Part shown: piece by piece, positions 1 through 33,805 of the stretch
Layout of the letters: every line of letters begins with the position of its first letter
Numbering within the stretch: position 1 is the stretch's first letter
Virus record (IMG/VR): IMGVR_UViG_3300001748_000001
Direction: 5' to 3' (one strand)
DNA: 33,805 bases
DNA from: a virus
Program-made: the position numbers and the translations under genes
Notes under the pieces: generated by a model
Database searches by the model: none
What the model saw: only the letters and a program-made list of their open reading frames with translations
What the model was told of the DNA's origin: nothing

Positions 1-85
1 GTGGAACAACATTAATAGACAATGGTGCTTTAGATGCTGGAGTACCAACAGGAAGTTTAATATTACTTTCAACTCAAACAGCAAG
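1..85. repeat. End overlap: nt 1-85 identical to nt 33721-33805 (circular closure or terminal redundancy of the contig)
   Basis: Direct comparison of both ends gives 85/85 identity. The repeat lies inside a CDS that reads continuously across the junction. Confidence 0.95.
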
Positions 86-620
86 TGCAAGTGCATCTAT
101 TGAATTTACATCTGGTATAGATTCTACTTATGATACTTATGTTTTTAAATTTTATAACATTCATTTAGCATCAGATGACAAAACTTTTACTTTTCAAGCA
201 AGTACTGATGGGGGAAGTTCTTATGGAATAACAACTACAAATTCTAGATTTAACGCAAGTCATAAAGAAGATGATTCATCTACAAGTTTAGGATATGCTT
301 CAAACCAAGATTTAGCACAAAGTACAACTTTTATAAATTTAGCACATGGTATAGGTTCTGATAATGACCAATGTTTTTCAGGAACATTAACAATATATAA
401 TCCTAGTTCAACTACTTTTGTTAAACATTATTTAGCAACAAATTCTATTTGTCATTCTTCAGATAGAATGGATAATACTTTTTTAGGTGGATATTTTAAT
501 ACTACAACAGCATTAAATGCTTTTAAATTTCAAGGTTTTACCATTGCTGGTGGTGGAGGAATAACAACACCAAATATAAACATAGATGATGGAATAATCA
601 AAATGTATGGAGTAAAATAA
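1..620 (+). CDS. Paralog A of a ~200-aa tail-fibre-adjacent protein family. This is the C-terminal part; the gene starts at 33705 and wraps the junction.
   Basis: Open frame from nt 3 to TAA 618-620, missed by the ORF track because it has no in-window start. Translation GTTLIDNGAL..QTASASASIEFTSGIDSTY..STDGGSSY..NPSSTTFVKH aligns with ORFs 630-1229 and 33048-33650. Confidence 0.8.
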   Translation, partial: GTTLIDNGALDAGVPTGSLILLSTQTASASASIEFTSGIDSTYDTYVFKFYNIHLASDDKTFTFQASTDGGSSYGITTTNSRFNASHKEDDSSTSLGYASNQDLAQSTTFINLAHGIGSDNDQCFSGTLTIYNPSSTTFVKHYLATNSICHSSDRMDNTFLGGYFNTTTALNAFKFQGFTIAGGGGITTPNINIDDGIIKMYGVK

Positions 621-629
621 GGAGTAATC

Positions 630-1229
630 ATGGGTTTAATATCTAACGGCACAACAATATTCGACAATGGCTCAATGGCATCTGGCTTTGGTGGTAATTT
701 AAACTTTATCTCAAAACAAACTGCTAGTGCATCTGCTAGTATAGAGTTCACATCTGGTATTGATAGTACATATAAGGAATATGTTTTTTTCTTTAACAAT
801 ATGCACCCTAGTAATGATGTTTCACAATTACAATTTAATATGAGTACAGATGGTGGTTCTAATTATAATGTAACTAAAACATCAACAGCTTTTAGAGCAA
901 GTCACCCAGAAAATGATGCTTTTACTTTTTTGGGTTATCAAGGAAGTTATGACCTTGCACAAGGAACAGGCTTTCAACCTATTACATTAGAAGATGGTAA
1001 TGAAAATGATGAATGTTCATCTGGTTCTTTAACTTTATTCAATCCTTCATCTACAACTTTTGTAAAACATTTTATATCAAGATTTGCTTCTACAACTTAT
1101 TTTCCAGAAATACATGATGTATTTGTTTCTGGTTATGGAAATACTACCAACAGTATTAATGCTATAAAATTTCAATATTCTAGTGGCAACATAGATAGTG
1201 GTCAGATATTGCTATTCGGAGTAAATTAA
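630..1229 (+). CDS. Paralog B of the same family (candidate distal tail / receptor-binding accessory protein)
   Basis: ATG preceded by AAGGAG. Shares ISNGTT, QTASASASIEFTSGIDSTY, STDGGSNYNVTKT, DLAQ, NPSSTTFVKHFISR, GYGNTT and SGNIDSG blocks with the other two copies. Confidence 0.8.
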   Translation: MGLISNGTTIFDNGSMASGFGGNLNFISKQTASASASIEFTSGIDSTYKEYVFFFNNMHPSNDVSQLQFNMSTDGGSNYNVTKTSTAFRASHPENDAFTFLGYQGSYDLAQGTGFQPITLEDGNENDECSSGSLTLFNPSSTTFVKHFISRFASTTYFPEIHDVFVSGYGNTTNSINAIKFQYSSGNIDSGQILLFGVN

Positions 1230-1246
1230 TTTATAAGGAGAACATT

Positions 1247-1543
1247 ATGCACAAATTAGTAAATGGAATACAAGTACCTCTAACACCAGAGGAAATCGCA
1301 CAAAGACAACAAGATGAAATCGCTTGGAACAATGGTGCATTTGATAGAGCTATGGCAGATTTAAGAAGTAAAAGAGATAGACTTCTTGCTTCATGTGATT
1401 ACACAGTACTACAAGATAGCACATACACAGATGCACAAGTTGCTGAATGGGTTATCTATAGACAAGCATTAAGAGATATAACAAATGGTTTAACTACTGT
1501 TGCTGATGTTGAAGCTGTTGTATTCCCAACTAAACCTGCGTAA
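1247..1543 (+). CDS. Tail(-fibre) assembly chaperone-like protein
   Basis: 98 aa with RBS AAGGAG. The C-terminal pattern RDRLLASCDYTVLQDS...WVIYRQALRDIT resembles the phage tail assembly chaperone family (from memory, unverified). It sits directly after the fibre and paralog genes. Confidence 0.55.
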   Translation: MHKLVNGIQVPLTPEEIAQRQQDEIAWNNGAFDRAMADLRSKRDRLLASCDYTVLQDSTYTDAQVAEWVIYRQALRDITNGLTTVADVEAVVFPTKPA

Positions 1544-3591: not shown

Positions 3592-3752
3592 GAGACACTA
3601 AGATTATTGAAATGTTTAATAAGAAGTTAGAAAAAAAATTAAAAGAACTAGAACTATTTAAACTTCTAAAGAAAGAAGTTAATGTAGGTGCTAATGGTAC
3701 ACAAGATTATGTAATTAAAAAAGGTATCAACAAAGGTAAAGTTGCAAAATGA
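3588..3752 (+). CDS. Small Lys-rich helical protein (54 aa)
   Basis: MRDTKIIEMFNKKLEKKLKELELFKLLKKEV... ATGA overlaps with both neighbours. Confidence 0.4.
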   Translation: MRDTKIIEMFNKKLEKKLKELELFKLLKKEVNVGANGTQDYVIKKGINKGKVAK

Positions 3753-3943
3753 AAATTGATATTAAATGGATTATAGGATTTATAGGTAGTGCATTGTTTG
3801 GTTTATGTACTTGGGTTCTAGTATCTATTGTCGATTTAAAAGAAGATACAAACTATATTAAAGGTGAATTGTTTGGAATTGATAAAGCTATTGGTAGAGT
3901 ATATAATTACATTAATGGAAGCAGAAATAGTCCAGCAGAATAG
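3749..3943 (+). CDS. Small membrane protein (one TM helix)
   Basis: 64 aa. WIIGFIGSALFGLCTWVLVSIV is hydrophobic. Translationally coupled to the upstream ORF. Confidence 0.5.
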   Translation: MKIDIKWIIGFIGSALFGLCTWVLVSIVDLKEDTNYIKGELFGIDKAIGRVYNYINGSRNSPAE

Positions 3944-3945
3944 TT

Positions 3946-4200
3946 ATGGCATATAAAACTAAAGCATGGCAAAGAAAAGCAGGAAAGAATCCTAAAGGTG
4001 GATTGAATGCTAAAGGTAGACGAAGTTATAACAAAGCTACTGGTGGCAATCTAAAAGCACCAAGTAAAAAAGTAGGCAACAAAAGAAGAGCTAGCTTCTG
4101 TGCAAGGATGAAAGGCATGAAGAAGAAATTGACATCAGCTAAGACTGCAAGAGATCCTAACTCAAGAATTAATAAAGCACTTCGTGCTTGGAATTGTTAG
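3946..4200 (+). CDS. Conserved-looking very basic protein of unknown function
   Basis: 84 aa. KAWQRKAGKNPKGGLNAKGR...SFCARMKGMKKKLTSAKTARDPNSRINKALRAWNC resembles a widespread phage/bacterial DUF (from memory, not verified). Confidence 0.55.
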   Translation: MAYKTKAWQRKAGKNPKGGLNAKGRRSYNKATGGNLKAPSKKVGNKRRASFCARMKGMKKKLTSAKTARDPNSRINKALRAWNC

Positions 4201-4493
4201 TGAAAAAAACCTGGGTTAAAAAGAAATCAACAGTATTAGTTTGTGGTTATTGTAAAGAATGCAATAAAGAACTATTGAGTAATCAAGGTGGATGGATTAT
4301 AACCTATACCAAGAAATATTTTTGCCATGATGGTAAAGATGGTTCTTGTTTTGATAATTATTGTGAACGCAAATATAAGGAGAACAACAATGCCAATGGT
4401 AGGAAAAAAGAAGTTCAGCTATACGAAAGCTGGAAAGAAAAAAGCAAAAGCATACGCAAAGAAAAAGGGTATGAAGATGAAATCAAAAGGTAA
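4188..4493 (+). CDS. Cys-rich (zinc-ribbon-like) small protein; start uncertain (TTG 4188 or GTG 4200)
   Basis: CGYCKEC...C...C..C pattern. The 3' third overlaps a well-initiated alternative-frame ORF (4390-4500). Confidence 0.4.
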   Translation: MELLVKKTWVKKKSTVLVCGYCKECNKELLSNQGGWIITYTKKYFCHDGKDGSCFDNYCERKYKENNNANGRKKEVQLYESWKEKSKSIRKEKGYEDEIKR

Positions 4494-4500
4494 ATACTAA
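4390..4500 (+). CDS. Tiny Lys-rich protein (36 aa) nested in another frame of 4188-4493
   Basis: Perfect AAGGAG (4377-4382) 7 nt upstream of the ATG. MPMVGKKKFSYTKAGKKKAKAYAKKKGMKMKSKGKY. Confidence 0.45.
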   Translation: MPMVGKKKFSYTKAGKKKAKAYAKKKGMKMKSKGKY

Positions 4501-4634
4501 TGCCAAAAAAAGGTTTGTACTACAACATCAATCAGCGAAAGAAAAAAGGGATCAGTAGATCTAAAAAGAAATCTACTATCTCTGCTAAAGCATACAGAAA
4601 TATGTTGATGGGTTTTCCTAAGAAGAAGTCTTAG
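4500..4634 (+). CDS. Tiny basic protein (44 aa)
   Basis: TAATG coupling to 4390-4500. MPKKGLYYNINQRKKKGISRSKKKSTISAKAYRNMLMGFPKKKS. Confidence 0.4.
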   Translation: MPKKGLYYNINQRKKKGISRSKKKSTISAKAYRNMLMGFPKKKS

Positions 4635-4803
4635 TTAATCTTTTTATTTTAAACTCTAGCTGCCTAACATACAAACGCATATCATCTAGTTTGTGTTCAA
4701 GATCTTCGATCTTTAATCGATAACGAAGATGCCAATTAACTCCGACTATAGTATTCCTTTTAGTTCTTGAAACTCTTGCCATATCGTTTGCTCCCCATCC
4801 CAA
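4618..4803 (-). CDS. Small coiled-coil protein; the start is more likely the internal ATG at 4782
   Basis: Last ORF of the leftward block. Overlaps the end of the DnaA-like gene and, convergently, 4500-4634. Confidence 0.3.
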   Translation of the reverse strand: MGWGANDMARVSRTKRNTIVGVNWHLRYRLKIEDLEHKLDDMRLYVRQLEFKIKRLTKTSS

Positions 4804-5234
4804 AATCTTTGCTTGTTATGTTTCATTCGTAATGAATGTAAAACTGTTGTATGATCCTGTCCAAAAAATCTACCAATATTAGATAGGTTCATATTATATT
4901 TTTCACTCAATAGATTGTGTATGATGTTTCTAACTCTCACTACATCTTGAGTTCTAGTTTTAGAAAACAAATCTTTCTTACTCACTTGATACCTTTGGCA
5001 GACCTTATCAATAATTAAATATACTTTATCTTTAGGTACAGAATAGGAGTGAGCTATAATCTTTCTTGGTTTAAACTCTTGTTTAGTTTTGCTGATATGA
5101 AACTTGGCTAATCGATAGCCATTCTTAAAAGCATTTTTATAAATTAATTTTTCTTTCTTAGTTAAGCTAGAATAATGTCCAGCTTTCATGGCAAGTTTAA
5201 TCTCTTTAAACTTTGTACTTTCAATTTTAGTCAT
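4746..5234 (-). CDS. DnaA C-terminal (domain IV) DNA-binding domain protein without an AAA+ module
   Basis: SKTRTQDVVRVRNIIHNLLSEKYNMNLSNIGRFFGQDHTTVLHSL matches the DnaA domain IV signature (R..v..R....yL......sl..IG..fg.rDHTTV.h). Confidence 0.75.
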   Translation of the reverse strand: MTKIESTKFKEIKLAMKAGHYSSLTKKEKLIYKNAFKNGYRLAKFHISKTKQEFKPRKIIAHSYSVPKDKVYLIIDKVCQRYQVSKKDLFSKTRTQDVVRVRNIIHNLLSEKYNMNLSNIGRFFGQDHTTVLHSLRMKHNKQRFWDGEQTIWQEFQELKGIL

Positions 5235-5353
5235 AGATCCCCTATAGCCTTTCTTGTTTTTTTACAACTTTAAAGTTAATAGTTTAATTTGCCATTAACT
5301 GTTCTTTTGTCTGCTCAATTTCCCAAAGTAATTTATAAGAATCTTGTTGATAC

Positions 5354-5608
5354 TTATTTACTTTTTGTTTCGCTTCCAGATACTTCCGATGTTTCTTCTC
5401 TTGAAGATCCTTCAGCTTTTGCAGACGCATCTTGATGTTTTCCATCATGCTCCTTTGTTACTTTTGCAAAATCAAATCTAAGATTATGGATCTTGCATTC
5501 TACAAACTCTCCTCTGTTCGAGTTGTTTGCAGCTTTTTGTATATCATCAAAGAGTTCAATCATTTCAAAATGACATTCCCCATTAATAATTCGTTTGTAT
5601 TTTGTCAT
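5354..5608 (-). CDS. Hypothetical protein
   Basis: 84 aa. ATGA overlap with the upstream gene 5605-5901. Acidic/Ser-rich C-terminal tail. Confidence 0.45.
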   Translation of the reverse strand: MTKYKRIINGECHFEMIELFDDIQKAANNSNRGEFVECKIHNLRFDFAKVTKEHDGKHQDASAKAEGSSREETSEVSGSETKSK

Positions 5609-5901
5609 TTTTTATCCTGTTTGTCTATATCTTTTTTATGTAAACTAAATGCCATATCATTATAGATACTCATGTCATGGTAATTATCTGCTTTATATCC
5701 TCGTGTGGATCTAAATAATTTTAATGCCATCATAATATGACCTACTTGGTGTGGTTTAATTCTTTTTTTTAAATTATCAGCAAGGACCAATGTAAACATT
5801 TCTGCTAACATGGTAAAATTATATTCAAAGTTGCCGTAATCTTTTTCTCTATCCTCGACTATTTTTTTTTTAATTTCTTTATCTAGTTCTGTTACTTTCA
5901 T
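5605..5901 (-). CDS. Hypothetical small helical protein
   Basis: 98 aa. The pattern REKDYGNFEYNF...HQVGHIMMALKLFRS...DNYHDMSIY recalls small phage helical DUFs (unverified). Confidence 0.45.
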   Translation of the reverse strand: MKVTELDKEIKKKIVEDREKDYGNFEYNFTMLAEMFTLVLADNLKKRIKPHQVGHIMMALKLFRSTRGYKADNYHDMSIYNDMAFSLHKKDIDKQDKK

Positions 5902-6002
5902 AATTTGTTTTTAAAGGTGTGCCAAAGAAAAAACAAAGAGGGATTGGCAAAGAAAGGGATAGATGCCAAATGTAAACCCTAAAAAACTTCGACACACCAT
6001 TG

Positions 6003-6029
6003 AATTACAATCTAGTATCGATTGTAATT
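6003..6029 (-). terminator. Perfect 10-bp stem / 7-nt loop hairpin at the 3' end of gene 6012-6350 (attenuator, terminator or processing site)
   Basis: AATTACAATC (6003-6012) pairs with GATTGTAATT (6020-6029). On the minus strand a T-run (GTTTTTT) follows about 15 nt downstream. Confidence 0.35.
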
Positions 6030-6350
6030 GTTTTGTTTATAGTCTGAACCTTGACCTTTTGCAAATCTATTATTGCTTCCAAAAGATTTCTGCTGTCCGC
6101 TAGGCTTGGCAGATGTCGATCCAGAATTTGAAGGTGTCAAGACGACATTGATAATACCTGTTGGATTACCTTGTTCATCTAGGTCCTCAAATGCAGCTTG
6201 ATTGTACCAACTTTCCCCTATCTTTACTCCAAGTCTCCAGGTTTTACCCTCTGGACTTTTAGGATTAATTGGTGCAACAAATACTGGTCTGTTGTCTCCT
6301 GCTTGTTTGTCTGCGTTATGTGTAAGTTTTATATATATCTTATCACTCAT
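6012..6350 (-). CDS. Possible ssDNA-binding protein (by position only)
   Basis: 112 aa immediately downstream of the annealase gene (stop/start overlap). Gly/Ser/Asn/Gln-rich tail. No motif recognised. Confidence 0.25.
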   Translation of the reverse strand: MSDKIYIKLTHNADKQAGDNRPVFVAPINPKSPEGKTWRLGVKIGESWYNQAAFEDLDEQGNPTGIINVVLTPSNSGSTSAKPSGQQKSFGSNNRFAKGQGSDYKQNNYNRY

Positions 6351-7060
6351 TATATAACTCCTTGTTGGTTAAGTTTAGTCTCATGCACATCATACAAATC
6401 TGTGACTTGTCGATATACTCTGAGATTTTTATTAGGATCAAATAAGCTAGGATTTTCTTTTCTAAATTTCCTTAGAGCATAAATATCTTTAATAGATTTT
6501 ATGGCATCTCTTACTTGATTCATATCAATGTTCATATCAACATTGGCATGACCTGTACCACTAATAGTGGACCTCTCACTTATGTGAGCTGTACCACTCA
6601 TTCTTTGTTGTGGAATATTGTTAGTAGGTTTAGTGTTAGTTGGTTTAAAAGGTGCTGCCTTATAACCATCATCATTATCCAAACCTGTTTTTAAATTAAG
6701 TGCATTTAAGAATGCGTACTTCTTGGCATAAGACATACCATTACCTGTACCAAACTTATCTAAGTTTCCCATTGCACTACATCCTGTAATATCGACATAG
6801 CTTTCTGGGTTTTCAACATCGTGTATTCTCATTGCACAAGTAACCATGACAAAGTTTTCTTTAATCTCATTGGTGTAATTACAGACAGGATATAATCCAT
6901 TGTTTAGTAATGACTCCATTGCAACCTTTTGTACTTCATCATGTTGTAAAGGATTGAAGTGCATACCAGGAACTTTCTTTCCTTTTGCAACACCCCCCGC
7001 TTCACAAGCTGCTTTGTGTAGTTTTTGATATATGTTTGTTTTCATGCGTCTAACCCCCAT
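6350..7060 (-). CDS. Single-strand annealing protein, Erf/Rad52-like
   Basis: N-terminal NIYQKLHKAACEAGGVAKGKK... and GMSYAKKYAFLNALNLKTGLDNDDG resemble the Erf-family core. Sits between the exonuclease and the SSB candidate. Confidence 0.5.
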   Translation of the reverse strand: MGVRRMKTNIYQKLHKAACEAGGVAKGKKVPGMHFNPLQHDEVQKVAMESLLNNGLYPVCNYTNEIKENFVMVTCAMRIHDVENPESYVDITGCSAMGNLDKFGTGNGMSYAKKYAFLNALNLKTGLDNDDGYKAAPFKPTNTKPTNNIPQQRMSGTAHISERSTISGTGHANVDMNIDMNQVRDAIKSIKDIYALRKFRKENPSLFDPNKNLRVYRQVTDLYDVHETKLNQQGVI

Positions 7061-31248: not shown

Positions 31249-33045
31249 ATGACAATATCATCTACTACAGTAAAGAACTCATACTCTGGAAATGGTACAC
31301 TTGATACCTTCAACTACACTTTTAAGATCTTTGCTGACACAGATTTACAGGTTATCATTAGGGATGCTACAGCTACTGAAACAGTTAAAACTTTAACGAC
31401 TCATTATACAGTAACAGGTGCAGGTTCTGCTTCTGGTGGAACTATAGTTTTCACCGCAGGTAATATACCAAGTGCAACTGAAACTGTAGTAATTAGAAGA
31501 GCTGTTCCGCAAACCCAAGCGATTGATTATATCGCTAATGATCCATTCCCTGCGGAATCACACGAAGAGGGTTTGGATCGTTCAATGATGACACTACAAC
31601 AACTTCAAGAAGAAGTTGATCGATCTATAAAACTATCAAGAACAAATACTATGACCTCTACAGAGTTTGCTGTAGGTGCAACAAATAGAGCAAATAAAAT
31701 TTTAGCATTTGATACCAATGGAGAAATTTCTGTAACACAAGAGCTTGGAACTTTTGTAGGAAATTGGTCATCAAGTACAGACTTTAATGGAAGAGATATT
31801 GTAAAAGATACTACCAATAATAATATTTATATTGCAAATACAGCACATACATCTTCTGGTTCTTTGCCAATCAGTTCTAATACAGATGTTGCTAAATGGG
31901 ATTTATTAGTAGATGCTGCTAGTGCTACATCATCTGCTACTGCTGCAGCATCATCTGCAACTGCCGCTGCCTCTTCTGCTACAGCTGCTGCAACCTCAGA
32001 AACAAATGCCGCAACCTCTGAGACTAATGCTGCAACTTCAGAATCAAATGCAAGTACATCTGAAACTAATGCCGCTTCAAGTGCTACTTCTGCTGCATCT
32101 TCAGCTACATCAGCATCTACATCCGCAACTACTGCTACAACTAAAGCAAGTGAAGCATCTACATCAGCAACCAATGCAGCAACTTCTGAGACAAATGCAG
32201 CATCTTCTGCAACCTCTGCTGCTAGTTCTGCTACAACAGCTACGACTAAAGCAAGTGAGGCTAGTACTTCTGCGACTAATGCGGCAACAAGTGAAACCAA
32301 TGCTGCATCAAGTGCTAGTGCTGCTAGTACTTCAGAAACAAATGCAGCAACATCAGCGACAACTGCTAGTAATGCTGCTACAGCTGCACAAGCTGCACAA
32401 ACTGCTGCTGAACTCGCTGCTGATAATTTCGATGATACTTATTTAGGTGCAAAAGCTAGTGATCCTACAGTTGATAATGATGGTGATCCACTAACTGCAG
32501 GAGATTTATATTTTAATACAAGCTCAAATGAAGTTAAATATTATAATGGAACTTCTTGGTCTGCAATATCACCTGGTATTACAGATATAGTTTCAGATAC
32601 TACACCACAATTAGGTGGTAGCTTAGATGTTAATGGTAATTCAATCGTATCAGTTTCAAATGGAAATATCTCAATCACTCCTGATGGAACAGGTAAAGTT
32701 ATTATAGATGGTTTATCACACCCAACAGCAGATGGAACTAATGGTCAAGCATTAGTAACTGATGGTGCTGGAAATTTATCTTTTGGAGATGTTTCAGTAA
32801 GTCTAAGTGCAGTAGGAGAATCAATTATCCCAGCAACAACTGATACTTATGATCTAGGTTCATCATCTTTTGTATGGAGAAACATATACACAGGAGATTT
32901 ACATTTATCTAACGAAGCAAAATCAGAGGGTAATTCTGTAGATGGCACTAAAGGTAATTGGACTATTCAAGAGGGTGCTGACGATCTATTTATTGTTAAT
33001 AACAAATCAGGCAAGAAATATAAGTTCAAACTAGAGGAGATTTAA
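31249..33045 (+). CDS. Tail fibre
   Basis: N-terminal NSYSGNGTLDTFNYTFKIF..DLQV (fibre anchor-like), a ~170-aa Ala/Ser/Thr periodic shaft, and a C-terminal DTYDLGSSSFVWRNIYTGDLHL module. Confidence 0.7.
   Translation: MTISSTTVKNSYSGNGTLDTFNYTFKIFADTDLQVIIRDATATETVKTLTTHYTVTGAGSASGGTIVFTAGNIPSATETVVIRRAVPQTQAIDYIANDPFPAESHEEGLDRSMMTLQQLQEEVDRSIKLSRTNTMTSTEFAVGATNRANKILAFDTNGEISVTQELGTFVGNWSSSTDFNGRDIVKDTTNNNIYIANTAHTSSGSLPISSNTDVAKWDLLVDAASATSSATAAASSATAAASSATAAATSETNAATSETNAATSESNASTSETNAASSATSAASSATSASTSATTATTKASEASTSATNAATSETNAASSATSAASSATTATTKASEASTSATNAATSETNAASSASAASTSETNAATSATTASNAATAAQAAQTAAELAADNFDDTYLGAKASDPTVDNDGDPLTAGDLYFNTSSNEVKYYNGTSWSAISPGITDIVSDTTPQLGGSLDVNGNSIVSVSNGNISITPDGTGKVIIDGLSHPTADGTNGQALVTDGAGNLSFGDVSVSLSAVGESIIPATTDTYDLGSSSFVWRNIYTGDLHLSNEAKSEGNSVDGTKGNWTIQEGADDLFIVNNKSGKKYKFKLEEI
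31915..32420 (+). repeat. Low-complexity Ala/Ser/Thr/Glu/Asn periodic coding repeat within the tail fibre
   Basis: SSATAAA x3 and TSETNAA x several. The 28-aa unit TTATTKASEASTSATNAATSETNAASSA is repeated at 32128 and 32233. Confidence 0.85.
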
Positions 33046-33047
33046 AC

Positions 33048-33650
33048 ATGGCTTTTATCTCCAATGGCACTACGATTTTAGATAATGGTGCATTTGATGT
33101 TCCATTAGGAGGTCTAGTTTTATTATCTGAACAAACAGCATCAGCTTCAGCATCAATATCATTTACAAGTGGAATAGATAGTAGTTATCCAATATATCGT
33201 TTTGAATTTATTAATATCCACCCAGCAACTAATGATGTAGAATTTCAATTTAATTTTTCAACAGATGGTGGTTCTAACTACAATGTTACAAAAACAACTA
33301 CTGCATTTGAAAGTTATCATTCAGAAAGTGGTTCTGTTTCAGATGTAGCATATTTATCAGCAGATGATTTAGCACAGTCTACATCAAATCAAAAATTAAC
33401 AAGAAGAACAGGAAATAATAATGATGAATCTGCTAGTGGTTATTTACACTTATTCAATCCATCTTCCACAACTTTTGTAAAACATTTTATATCTAGAGTT
33501 CATAGTTATCATCAATCAGATTTAGCATATACTATGTTTGTTGCTGGATATGGAAACACTACATCAGCAATAAATGGTGTAAGATTTCAAATGTCATCTG
33601 GCAACATAGATTCTGGCACAATAAAACTATATGGAATAAAGGACAGTTAA
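33048..33650 (+). CDS. Paralog C of the ~200-aa tail-fibre-adjacent family
   Basis: Starts 2 nt after the tail fibre stop. MAFISNGTTILDNG...QTASASASISFTSGIDSSY...NPSSTTFVKHFISR...SGNIDSG. Confidence 0.8.
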   Translation: MAFISNGTTILDNGAFDVPLGGLVLLSEQTASASASISFTSGIDSSYPIYRFEFINIHPATNDVEFQFNFSTDGGSNYNVTKTTTAFESYHSESGSVSDVAYLSADDLAQSTSNQKLTRRTGNNNDESASGYLHLFNPSSTTFVKHFISRVHSYHQSDLAYTMFVAGYGNTTSAINGVRFQMSSGNIDSGTIKLYGIKDS

Positions 33651-33704: not shown

Positions 33705-33805
33705 ATGGCAGTAGTATCAGGTGGAACAACATTAATAGACAATGGTGCTTTAGATGCTGGAGTACCAACAGGAAGTTTAATATTACTTTCAACTCAAACA
33801 GCAAG
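33705..33805 (+). CDS. Paralog A, N-terminal part (continues at nt 1-620 through the circular junction; 211 aa in total)
   Basis: AAGGAG (33692-33697) 7 nt before ATG 33705. MAVVSGGTTLIDNGAL... is in phase with the open frame at nt 3-620. Confidence 0.75.
   Translation, partial: MAVVSGGTTLIDNGALDAGVPTGSLILLSTQTA
33721..33805. repeat. End overlap, second copy (identical to nt 1-85)
   Basis: 85/85 identity with the window start. Confidence 0.95.

What the first reader, a model, noticed from the sequence alone, without database searches (positions are those of the whole stretch)
1..1229. Three tandem, diverged ~200-aa paralogs directly after the tail fibre and before a fibre-chaperone-like gene
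On the circle the copies are C (33048-33650), A (33705 -> junction -> 620) and B (630-1229). They share conserved blocks: ISNGTT.DNG, QTASASASI.FTSGIDS.Y, STDGGS.Y, DLAQ.T, ND..SG.L.L/I-F/Y-NPSSTTFVKH, GY.NTT..NA.KFQ and (in B and C) SGNIDSG. These blocks are separated by divergent segments. Copy A also has a distinct Gly-rich C-terminus (FTIAGGGGITTPNINIDDG). Conserved framework blocks with variable inter-block segments, located between the fibre and a chaperone, suggest interchangeable receptor-binding or fibre-tip modules or a host-range expansion array. I do not recognise the family.
Basis: seen in the sequence. Interest (0 to 1): 0.62.

Follow-up and report, generated by a model that had tools for sequence, protein, structure and literature searches.

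The report
Three-gene tail-fibre tip module, pelagiphage
Three related genes in this ocean virus of SAR11 bacteria probably encode the host-binding knobs that plug onto the end of its tail fibre, and the same set of three plus a folding helper is kept in nearly all relatives, so it is likely a key, so far undescribed part of how very abundant marine viruses recognise their hosts.

Summary
The window is a circularly assembled HTVC010P-type Pelagibacter podophage with an 85-nt end overlap. Copies C, A and B (200, 211 and 199 aa; 51-58% identical) lie between the tail fibre and a Phage_tail_APC chaperone.

- **Family.** All three belong to phrog_14820 (function unknown). They have no Pfam or PDB relative.
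- **Fold.** AlphaFold gives a confident beta-sandwich behind a disordered ~20-aa N-terminal tail.
- **Position in relatives.** In 116 of 119 longer homologs the domain is the extreme C-terminus of a fibre protein, in some cases behind a T7-fibre N-terminal domain.
- **Copy number.** 57 of 62 complete arrays have exactly three copies. There are three old ortholog types, and the chaperone follows the array in 61 of 63 loci.
- **N-tails.** The three N-tails of one genome belong to one class. That class matches the C-terminal domain of the upstream protein; here this is a 73-aa fibre end shared with cyanophages.

I read the module as stand-alone fibre-tip heads that dock through their N-tails. I favour one of each type per fibre end (a heterotrimer), but this is unproven. 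A variable "host-range array" is not supported. This scan has noted analogous three-paralog sets behind fibres on other DNA, in unrelated protein families.

The parts
31249..33045 (+). Tail fibre gene (598 aa). It has a T7 gp17-like N-terminal attachment part and an Ala/Ser/Thr-rich shaft. A conserved 73-aa C-terminal end domain (aa 526-598, nt 32824-33042) is the proposed dock for the three heads.
   Evidence: PHROG tail families match aa 1-171 and 222-454. PDB hits are Dpo31/Dpo36 tail fibres (aa 1-516) and T7 gp17 (aa 301-410). Aa 526-598 match the C-terminus of cyanophage P-SCSP1u fibre gp28 (8i4m) at E 4e-20. The same end domain precedes every class I array.
33048..33650 (+). Copy C (200 aa), 'D' type: ends in IKDS and has Pro at alignment position 48. 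Disordered N-tail MAFISNGTTILDNG..., then a beta-sandwich head.
   Evidence: phrog_14820 E 3.8e-78. AlphaFold pLDDT 91.8, pTM 0.85, 11 strands, residues 1-20 below pLDDT 50. Type assignment.
33705..33805 (+). Copy A, 5' part (start codon at 33705). Bases 33721-33805 are the same DNA as 1-85 (assembly overlap).
1..620 (+). Copy A, remainder (211 aa in all), 'S/K' type: ends in YGVK and has Asp at position 48. Carries a rare 11-residue Gly-rich insertion at nt ~534-572.
   Evidence: phrog_14820 E 1.8e-58. AlphaFold pLDDT 91.3, pTM 0.85, same fold, with the insertion lengthening the last hairpin. The insertion is present in 2 of 230 members.
630..1229 (+). Copy B (199 aa), 'N' type: ends in FGVN and has Lys-Glu at positions 48-49.
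   Evidence: phrog_14820 E 1.8e-69. Lies in the position-3 clade (98-99% support).
1247..1543 (+). Tail-fibre assembly chaperone-like gene (98 aa), the fourth member of the module.
   Evidence: Pfam PF16778 E 4.3e-15, 55.7 bits against a cut-off of 26.6. PHROG tail fibre assembly families. PDB 2kz6 E 5e-9. A homolog lies within 150 nt downstream of the array in 61 of 63 loci.

Best explanation
The three genes encode stand-alone distal head (tip) proteins of the tail fibre. Each is a ~180-aa beta-sandwich domain behind a ~20-aa flexible N-terminal tail.

**Shown**
- The same domain is the C-terminal tip of one-piece fibres in other phages.
- The set of three plus a Tfa-like chaperone is a conserved four-gene module.
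- The three tails in a genome are of one class, and that class tracks the C-terminal domain of the upstream protein.

**Inferred**
- The tails are docking peptides that plug the heads onto the trimeric fibre's conserved 73-aa end domain.
- The downstream chaperone helps the heads fold and oligomerise.
- The pole carrying the variable segments contacts the SAR11 surface.

**Favoured sub-model (inferred, untested)**
One head of each type (D, S/K, N) sits on each fibre end as a 1:1:1 heterotrimer, comparable to the A/B/C heads of C1q. This would give an asymmetric binding face made of three independently evolving subunits.

The confidence given here (0.4) is for the whole statement including the heterotrimer; the fibre-tip reading alone I put at about 0.8.
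For: **Tip position**
- 116 of 119 longer homologs carry the domain at the extreme C-terminus.
- Their N-terminal partners include Phage_T7_tail PF03906, YadA stalk, Gly_rich_2 and DUF5907. Collagen PF01391 is recorded for several homologs.
- BFVD fold matches are fibre C-termini.
- In L043 and L070 a 'tail fiber' PHROG is fused to the domain.

**Module**
- Exactly three copies in 57 of 62 complete arrays.
- Chaperone directly downstream in 61 of 63 loci.
- The module is present in HTVC010P-type phages, in the T7-like HTVC019P and next to a lambda-J-like gene.

**Three types**
- 13 label changes against 63.7 for shuffled labels on a body-only tree.
- Signature column 48 is P, D or K, in 85-98% of each type.

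**Docking**
- All three tails of an array share a class. Class I occurs with the ..KYKFKLEEI fibre end (24 complete triple arrays plus 5 shorter or partly classified ones). Class III occurs with an Ig-like ..RYLRL end (13 of 13).
- L024 carries a head body 91% identical to copy A but with a class III tail.
- The same fibre end domain in cyanophages is followed, start overlapping stop, by unrelated small proteins and often by a homologous chaperone.

**Heterotrimer hints**
- The number three is nearly fixed.
- Column 48 is Asp in 149 of 208 one-piece fibre tips and in nearly every domain of 2- and 3-domain chains. In the stand-alone trios it is P/D/K in 35 of 57 arrays and D/K/K in 10 of 57.
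- The type-specific features are column 48/49 and the C-terminal tail.
Against: - There is no direct evidence of virion presence, of docking, or of any oligomer. The tools here fold single chains only.
- Chains with two tandem domains (about 14) are commoner than chains with three (7), and they have no third copy nearby. Tandem domains can therefore work without a closed three-part unit.
- Single-copy arrays exist (phage Lederberg; the extra head in L033), so the domain probably homotrimerises.
- Lys or Arg at column 48 occurs in 33 one-piece fibre tips, so it is tolerated in presumed homotrimers.
- Divergence of the three copies between genomes is only weakly correlated (r 0.27-0.40), and ortholog identity (about 0.55) barely exceeds paralog identity (0.53).
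- Column 48 was picked after the fact as the only type-specific column.
- Class III and IV arrays do not map one-to-one onto the three types.
Confidence: 0.4

Rival explanations
1. There are three separate homotrimeric tips. Each paralog forms its own homotrimer, and the three kinds compete for the same dock on the six fibres. A virion would then carry a mixture of tips and could bind several receptor variants.
For: - The domain must homotrimerise in one-piece fibres, and probably does in single-copy arrays.
- All three tails share one docking class, as competition for one site would require.
- The bodies diverge nearly independently, and single bodies are exchanged between phages: L024 against the window is 91%, 66% and 56% identical for the three copies.
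- Lys or Arg at column 48 is tolerated in one-piece fibres.
Against: - Sets of independent tips usually vary in number. Here 57 of 62 arrays have exactly three, with one of each old type, across unrelated phage backbones.
- The ancestral Asp at column 48 has been replaced in two of the three types, whereas tandem domains in single chains keep it.
Confidence: 0.28
2. The heads form a serial chain. The three paralogs make three homotrimeric rings stacked one after another on the fibre axis (fibre-C3-A3-B3). This would be a non-covalent version of the 2- and 3-domain single-chain fibres.
For: - Natural chains with 2 or 3 tandem copies and short linkers sit at fibre C-termini, for example P0274 behind a short collagen-like Gly-X-Y run, seen by reading the sequence.
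- The fixed number and the largely fixed order of the genes fit this model.
Against: - The tails of copies 2 and 3 change class together with the upstream protein's end domain. The head poles they would have to bind are invariant across classes.
- The order of the first two types is swapped between class I and class II arrays.
- Stand-alone copies differ at column 48, whereas stacked domains in single chains all keep Asp.
Confidence: 0.12
3. The proteins are not receptor binders. In this reading they are fibre-associated enzymes (for example glycan-cleaving or glycan-modifying jelly-roll proteins) or another virion or assembly component. Their invariant polar loops would form an active or metal-binding site.
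For: - Many invariant polar residues sit in loops: H58, H91, E93, D107, Q110, K145, H146, Y168, N170, D188.
- Weak fold resemblance to galectins and GH16 glucanases.
Against: - No enzyme family matches by sequence or profile.
- Foldseek finds nothing in the PDB at E <= 0.001, and the best TM-scores are 0.38-0.48.
- All context and fusions are those of fibre tips.
- Three paralogs that all keep the same conserved residues is not the usual pattern for an enzyme.
Confidence: 0.08

Closest known systems
gp38-type adhesin on the gp37 long tail fibre of T2/T6/S16-like phages, and fibre plus Tfa chaperone modules of lambda, Mu and P2 (from established knowledge)
   Same: - A separately encoded small protein, placed directly after the fibre gene, forms or completes the receptor-binding tip.
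- A small assembly chaperone gene sits next to it.
- The module is exchanged between phages.
   Different: - There is no sequence relationship: no Pfam GP38 or Caudo_TAP hit.
- Here there are three paralogous beta-sandwich heads rather than one Gly-rich adhesin.
- Docking appears to use a short N-terminal peptide.
- The chaperone is of the Phage_tail_APC type.
Complement C1q globular head (A, B and C chains) and the C1q/TNF trimer family; C1q-domain putative receptor-binding proteins of pelagiphages (Mizuno et al. 2014, PMC3909814)
   Same: - Three paralogous beta-sandwich subunits encoded in tandem, which would form one head on a trimeric stalk.
- C1q-domain genes occupy the same neighbourhood in related pelagiphages; in Lederberg one lies immediately upstream of the single copy.
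   Different: - The fold relationship is not demonstrated: Foldseek to RANKL gives E 1.1e-3 and TM 0.15.
- There is no collagen stalk in the same chain.
- Heterotrimer formation is only inferred.
Branched or modular receptor-binding proteins of podoviruses (for example dual tailspike systems with N-terminal adaptor domains; PMC13579863 gives an overview)
   Same: - Conserved N-terminal docking parts are combined with exchangeable distal bodies.
- The docking part co-varies with its partner protein.
   Different: - The docking part here is a ~20-45 aa peptide, not a folded adaptor domain.
- Three paralogs share it.
- The number of heads is fixed rather than variable.
Fibre gp28 of cyanophage P-SCSP1u (PDB 8i4m; PMC10575957)
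   Same: - The last 73 aa of the window's fibre are 60-65% identical to the end of gp28.
- In both phages the next gene starts at the fibre's stop codon.
   Different: - The cyanophage gene that follows (150 aa) is unrelated to this family.
- The distal fibre was not resolved in the cryo-EM map, so that work gives no structural information on the dock.

Membership tests
phrog_14820 (PHROG family of unknown function) | Full-length match to the family profile | tested here: met
   E 1.8e-58 (A), 1.8e-69 (B) and 3.8e-78 (C), covering profile positions ~10-206 of 206.
Tail-fibre distal (receptor-binding) head domains | Homologous domain located at the C-terminal end of proteins with a fibre attachment or shaft part | tested here: met
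   116 of 119 longer homologs end with the domain. PF03906 Phage_T7_tail is at the N-terminus of P0220, P0227 and P0230. The phrog_18673 'tail fiber' fusion occurs in L043 and L070.
Tail-fibre distal (receptor-binding) head domains | Compact all-beta fold with one variable pole | tested here: inconclusive
   The beta-sandwich models are confident. Conserved and variable segments alternate along the chain, as expected if each kind lies at one pole. No coordinates were available to confirm the clustering.
Tail-fibre distal (receptor-binding) head domains | Presence in virions and binding to the host surface | not testable with these tools
   I found no proteomic or binding data in the papers searched.
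C1q/TNF superfamily | Significant sequence or fold match to C1q or TNF domains | tested here: not met
   No Pfam hit and no PDB sequence or profile hit. Foldseek's best hit is RANKL at E 1.1e-3, probability 0.35 and TM 0.15-0.17.
C1q/TNF superfamily | Trimer (for C1q, a heterotrimer) of the head domains | not testable with these tools
   Only single-chain prediction was available.
gp38 adhesins (Pfam PF05268 / PF21721) | Match to the GP38 or Gp38_N profiles | tested here: not met
   No Pfam family at E <= 0.01 for any of the three copies.
Galectin / concanavalin-like lectins | Fold match with significant score | tested here: inconclusive
   Galectin CRDs give probability 0.85-0.97 but E > 1e-3, TM 0.33-0.48 and 7-11% identity.
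Phage_tail_APC (PF16778) tail-fibre assembly chaperones (downstream gene 1247-1543) | Profile match above Pfam's curated cut-off | tested here: met
   55.7 bits against a cut-off of 26.6, E 4.3e-15. Supported by PHROG tail fibre assembly families.

The most novel reading that the evidence does not exclude
Many pelagiphages, among the most abundant viruses in the ocean, recognise SAR11 with an obligate C1q-like heterotrimeric knob. The knob would be made of three paralogous stand-alone proteins. They would plug through short N-terminal peptides onto a universal adaptor domain at the fibre end, with the help of a dedicated chaperone. 'Three paralogs behind a fibre' would then be a general, repeatedly evolved way to build asymmetric receptor-binding tips on threefold-symmetric fibres.
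Probability: 0.38. Interest if true: 0.75.

Novelty: new variant of a known kind. Interest (0 to 1): 0.55.

Why it matters
- **Ecological weight.** HTVC010P-type and related pelagiphages are among the most numerous viruses on Earth. Their receptor-binding proteins and the SAR11 receptors are unknown.
- **Size of the family.** It is very large: 15,182 clusters at 50% identity at E <= 1e-3. Its members are annotated only as hypothetical proteins.
- **Concrete candidates.** Assigning the family to the fibre tip, with a defined docking peptide, adaptor domain and chaperone, gives specific targets for adsorption, structural and host-range studies. It also gives a marker for reading host-recognition diversity in viromes.
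- **If the heterotrimer holds.** As far as I know this would be the first phage fibre tip shown to be built from three different chains. It would explain why trios of paralogs recur behind fibre genes.

Tried and rejected
- **Sequence and profile searches.** Pfam, PDB with a single sequence and PDB with a 150-sequence profile gave nothing for the three proteins.
- **Fold search.** Foldseek against the PDB gave no match at E <= 0.001. I did not accept the galectin or TNF resemblances as membership.
- **'Conserved strands, variable loops'.** Entropy of strands and non-strand positions does not differ (p = 0.33). The conserved blocks are mostly loops.
- **Rosetta-stone test.** I looked for natural fusions. 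Chains with three domains exist, but so do chains with two domains and no third copy nearby, so the test is ambiguous.
- **Apparent fusions.** P0009 and P0095 turned out to be chimeras of neighbouring copies.
- **Recent divergence in variable segments.** Only 8 informative pairs were available and they showed no enrichment.
- **Type-specific residues.** Only column 48/49 and the C-terminal tail qualify.
- **Tree bias.** The first tree included the N-tails and could have grouped copies by tail class. I rebuilt it on the bodies only.
- **Literature.** I found no description of the trio in the pelagiphage papers I read.

Full report
**What the window is**

The first 85 nt repeat the last 85 nt, so this is a circular or permuted assembly of 33,720 nt. 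Megablast places it among HTVC010P-type Pelagibacter podophages, with about 80% identity over the structural genes to HTVC035P, Lederberg, Greip and others.

The late genes run in this order:
- terminase, portal, capsid and tail tube genes;
- a 1164-aa internal virion protein;
- the tail fibre (31249-33045);
- the three paralogs;
- a 98-aa chaperone-like gene (1247-1543);
- small genes and an M15 endolysin.

- C (33048-33650), A (33705-33720 + 1-620) and B (630-1229) are 200, 211 and 199 aa. They are 51-58% identical to each other.
- Each matches phrog_14820, a family with no assigned function, at E 1e-58 to 1e-78.
- None matches Pfam or any PDB sequence, even when a 150-sequence profile is used.
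- The Gly-rich stretch in A is an 11-residue insertion. Only one other of 230 members shares it.

**Fold**

AlphaFold2 with a 150-sequence alignment gives copy C a mean pLDDT of 91.8 and pTM 0.85. The model has 11 beta strands from residue 23 onward, behind a low-confidence N-terminal tail. Copy A folds the same way (pLDDT 91.3); its insertion lengthens the last hairpin.

Foldseek finds no solved structure at E <= 0.001. Galectin domains superpose best (TM 0.38-0.48). The lowest E-values go to a TNF-family protein and to viral jelly-rolls, with poor superposition. The fold is therefore a beta-sandwich of jelly-roll type with no solved relative.

Against predicted viral structures there are 107 matches at E <= 0.001. 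Many are the C-terminal part of longer proteins named tail fiber, lambda Stf repeat, collagen repeat or fibronectin.

**Where the domain sits in other proteins**

- Among longer homologs, 116 of 119 carry the domain at the very C-terminus.
- N-terminal partners include the T7 tail-fibre N-terminal domain (three proteins, above Pfam's cut-off), YadA stalk, Gly_rich_2 and DUF5907. Collagen repeats appear among the precomputed Pfam domains of further homologs.
- In loci L043 and L070 a 'tail fiber' PHROG is fused to the domain, right next to a stand-alone trio.
- The family is very large: 15,182 clusters at 50% identity at E <= 1e-3, and 7,777 at 1e-10.

This places the domain at the distal end of trimeric fibres, where receptor-binding domains sit.

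**A conserved four-gene module**

- HTVC010P, HTVC034P and the T7-like HTVC019P each have three copies followed by a ~97-aa gene. Lederberg has one copy, preceded by a C1q-domain gene.
- In 80 IMG/VR loci, 57 of 62 arrays that are not cut by a contig end have exactly three copies. The others have 1 (three loci), 2 (one) or 4 (one).
- A homolog of the window's chaperone lies within 150 nt downstream of the array in 61 of 63 loci with room for it. In the remaining two it lies 509 nt downstream or directly upstream.
- The distance from the fibre gene to the array varies from 2 nt to about 3 kb. The chaperone therefore travels with the trio, not with the fibre gene.

**Three old types**

- Position in the array is strongly clustered on the tree: 17 changes against 81.7 for shuffled labels.
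- With the N-tails removed, the types D, S/K and N in class I and II arrays need 13 changes against 63.7.
- The window's order is D-K-N. HTVC010P's order is S-D-N.
- The only type-specific features are the C-terminal tail (IKDS; YGV[S/K]; G[VI][NA]) and alignment column 48/49 (YPIY; YD.Y; YKEY), conserved in 85-98% of each type.
- Otherwise the bodies are very diverse. Orthologs between genomes are about 55% identical and paralogs within a genome about 53%. Divergence of the three copies is weakly correlated (r 0.27-0.40), so the arrays are mosaics.

**The N-terminal tails**

All copies of one array share one tail class:

| Class | Tail motif | Protein encoded just upstream |
|---|---|---|
| I | M[AG]xIS[NG]GTTxxDNG (the window) | ends in ..SGKKYKFKLEE[IV] in 29 loci |
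| II | MALxxxNNNS[IL]SA[IV]T (HTVC010P) | small proteins |
| III | ~45 aa, MGxITRSxANNITT | Ig-like domain ending ..RYLRL, in all 13 class III loci |
| IV | MSTYNAI | follows a lambda-J-like gene |

Bodies and tails recombine. L024 carries a body 91% identical to copy A behind a class III tail.

The class I partner is the last 73 aa of the window's fibre. It matches the C-terminus of the P-SCSP1u fibre gp28 at E 4e-20. It also occurs in 45 cyanophage records, among them T4-like cyanomyoviruses. In the eight cyanophage records I opened, the next gene nearly always starts at or right after the stop codon. It encodes a small protein unrelated to this family, present as one copy or as two paralogs. 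In P-GSP1, P-RSP2 and S-RS29 a homolog of the chaperone follows. The distal fibre was not resolved in the P-SCSP1u map (PMC10575957).

I infer that the fibre end is a portable adaptor and that the tails are the plugs.

**Polarity of the head**

Conserved segments are at 40-48, 72-81, 103-112, 137-144, 170-176 and the C-terminus. Variable segments are at 60-65, 93-99, 113-129 and 149-165. The two kinds alternate along the chain. In an up-and-down sandwich this would put them at opposite poles. This is an inference from the secondary-structure string, because no coordinates were available. I could not tell at which pole the N-tail emerges.

**How the three work together**

This question remains unresolved. 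The evidence bearing on a 1:1:1 heterotrimer is as follows.

For the heterotrimer:
- The number three is almost fixed, with one copy of each type, on unrelated phage backbones.
- The three tails are alike, as expected if they bind three equivalent sites of a homotrimeric fibre end.
- Column 48 is Asp in 149 of 208 one-piece fibre tips and in nearly every domain of multi-domain chains. In the trios it is P/D/K in 35 of 57 arrays and D/K/K in 10 of 57.

Against the heterotrimer:
- Single chains with two tandem domains (about 14) outnumber those with three (7), and none has four or more. The two-domain chains have no third copy nearby.
- Single-copy arrays exist.
- Lys or Arg at column 48 occurs in 33 one-piece fibre tips.
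- The three bodies evolve almost independently.

A serial stack of three homotrimers is disfavoured. The tails of copies 2 and 3 change class together with the upstream protein, although the head surfaces they would have to bind do not change.

My odds are:
- fibre-tip module overall, about 0.8;
- within that, heterotrimer about 0.4, three competing homotrimers about 0.28, serial stack about 0.12;
- another role, about 0.08.

**Comparison with known systems and novelty**

The layout works like fibre + gp38 adhesin + chaperone modules and like modular receptor-binding proteins with docking parts. The three proteins belong to none of those families (membership tests above). I found no description of the trio in the literature I searched.

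Earlier notes of this scan report trios of paralogs behind fibre genes in other, unrelated protein families. I did not test those notes and do not count them as support.

I rate the finding a new variant of a known kind.

Noticed in passing
window 1-85 and 33721-33805: The two ends of the window are identical over 85 nt. This is a circular or terminally redundant assembly with a true length of 33,720 nt. Copy A spans the junction.
   Followed up: yes
window 32824-33042 (fibre aa 526-598): This 73-aa fibre end domain is shared at 50-66% identity with 45 cyanophage records, both podoviruses and T4-like myoviruses. In the eight cyanophage records opened it is nearly always followed, at or right after its stop codon, by small tip-like genes of unrelated families. 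It looks like a portable adaptor for separately encoded fibre tips.
   Followed up: partly
L091 (Synechococcus phage S-RS29) 2294-3985; L087 (S-CAM4) 3737-6353: In these cyanomyoviruses the protein carrying the same end domain is followed by two tandem paralogs (142 aa twice; 434 and 427 aa). In S-RS29 an annotated tail assembly chaperone homologous to the window's comes next.
   Followed up: partly
P0280, P0339, P0284, P0274, P0271, P0388; L096 7001-8956: These are natural single chains with exactly three tandem copies of the domain, and about 14 more have two; none has four or more. P0280 is the last gene of a siphovirus tail module. Linkers are 0-12 aa of Gly/Ala/Ser in most. P0271 has ~40-aa repeat spacers between domains. 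P0274 has a short collagen-like run before the first domain.
   Followed up: partly
L033 2053-4601; L039 2-4325: These are rare arrays with four copies (one extra head with a class III tail, then a class II trio) and five copies (2 + 3, separated by a tail-fibre-like gene).
   Followed up: no
L055/L056 (IMG/VR contigs): The trio plus chaperone also occurs behind a lambda-J-like central fibre gene and a tailspike-adaptor-like 181-aa protein, with a fourth tail class (MSTYNAI...). The module therefore moves between phage morphotypes.
   Followed up: no
L001, L028, L042, L080, L086: small genes upstream of class II arrays or after cyanophage tips: Small proteins ending in ..W...I..VK..(N/Y)PKE resemble the end of the Phage_tail_APC chaperone. 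They may be a second chaperone family in these modules.
   Followed up: no
window 31900-32450 (fibre aa ~222-400): The fibre has a long Ala/Ser/Thr-rich repetitive shaft. It aligns weakly with the T7 gp17 shaft segment next to the N-terminal domain (PDB 7boz, E 2.6e-4).
   Followed up: no
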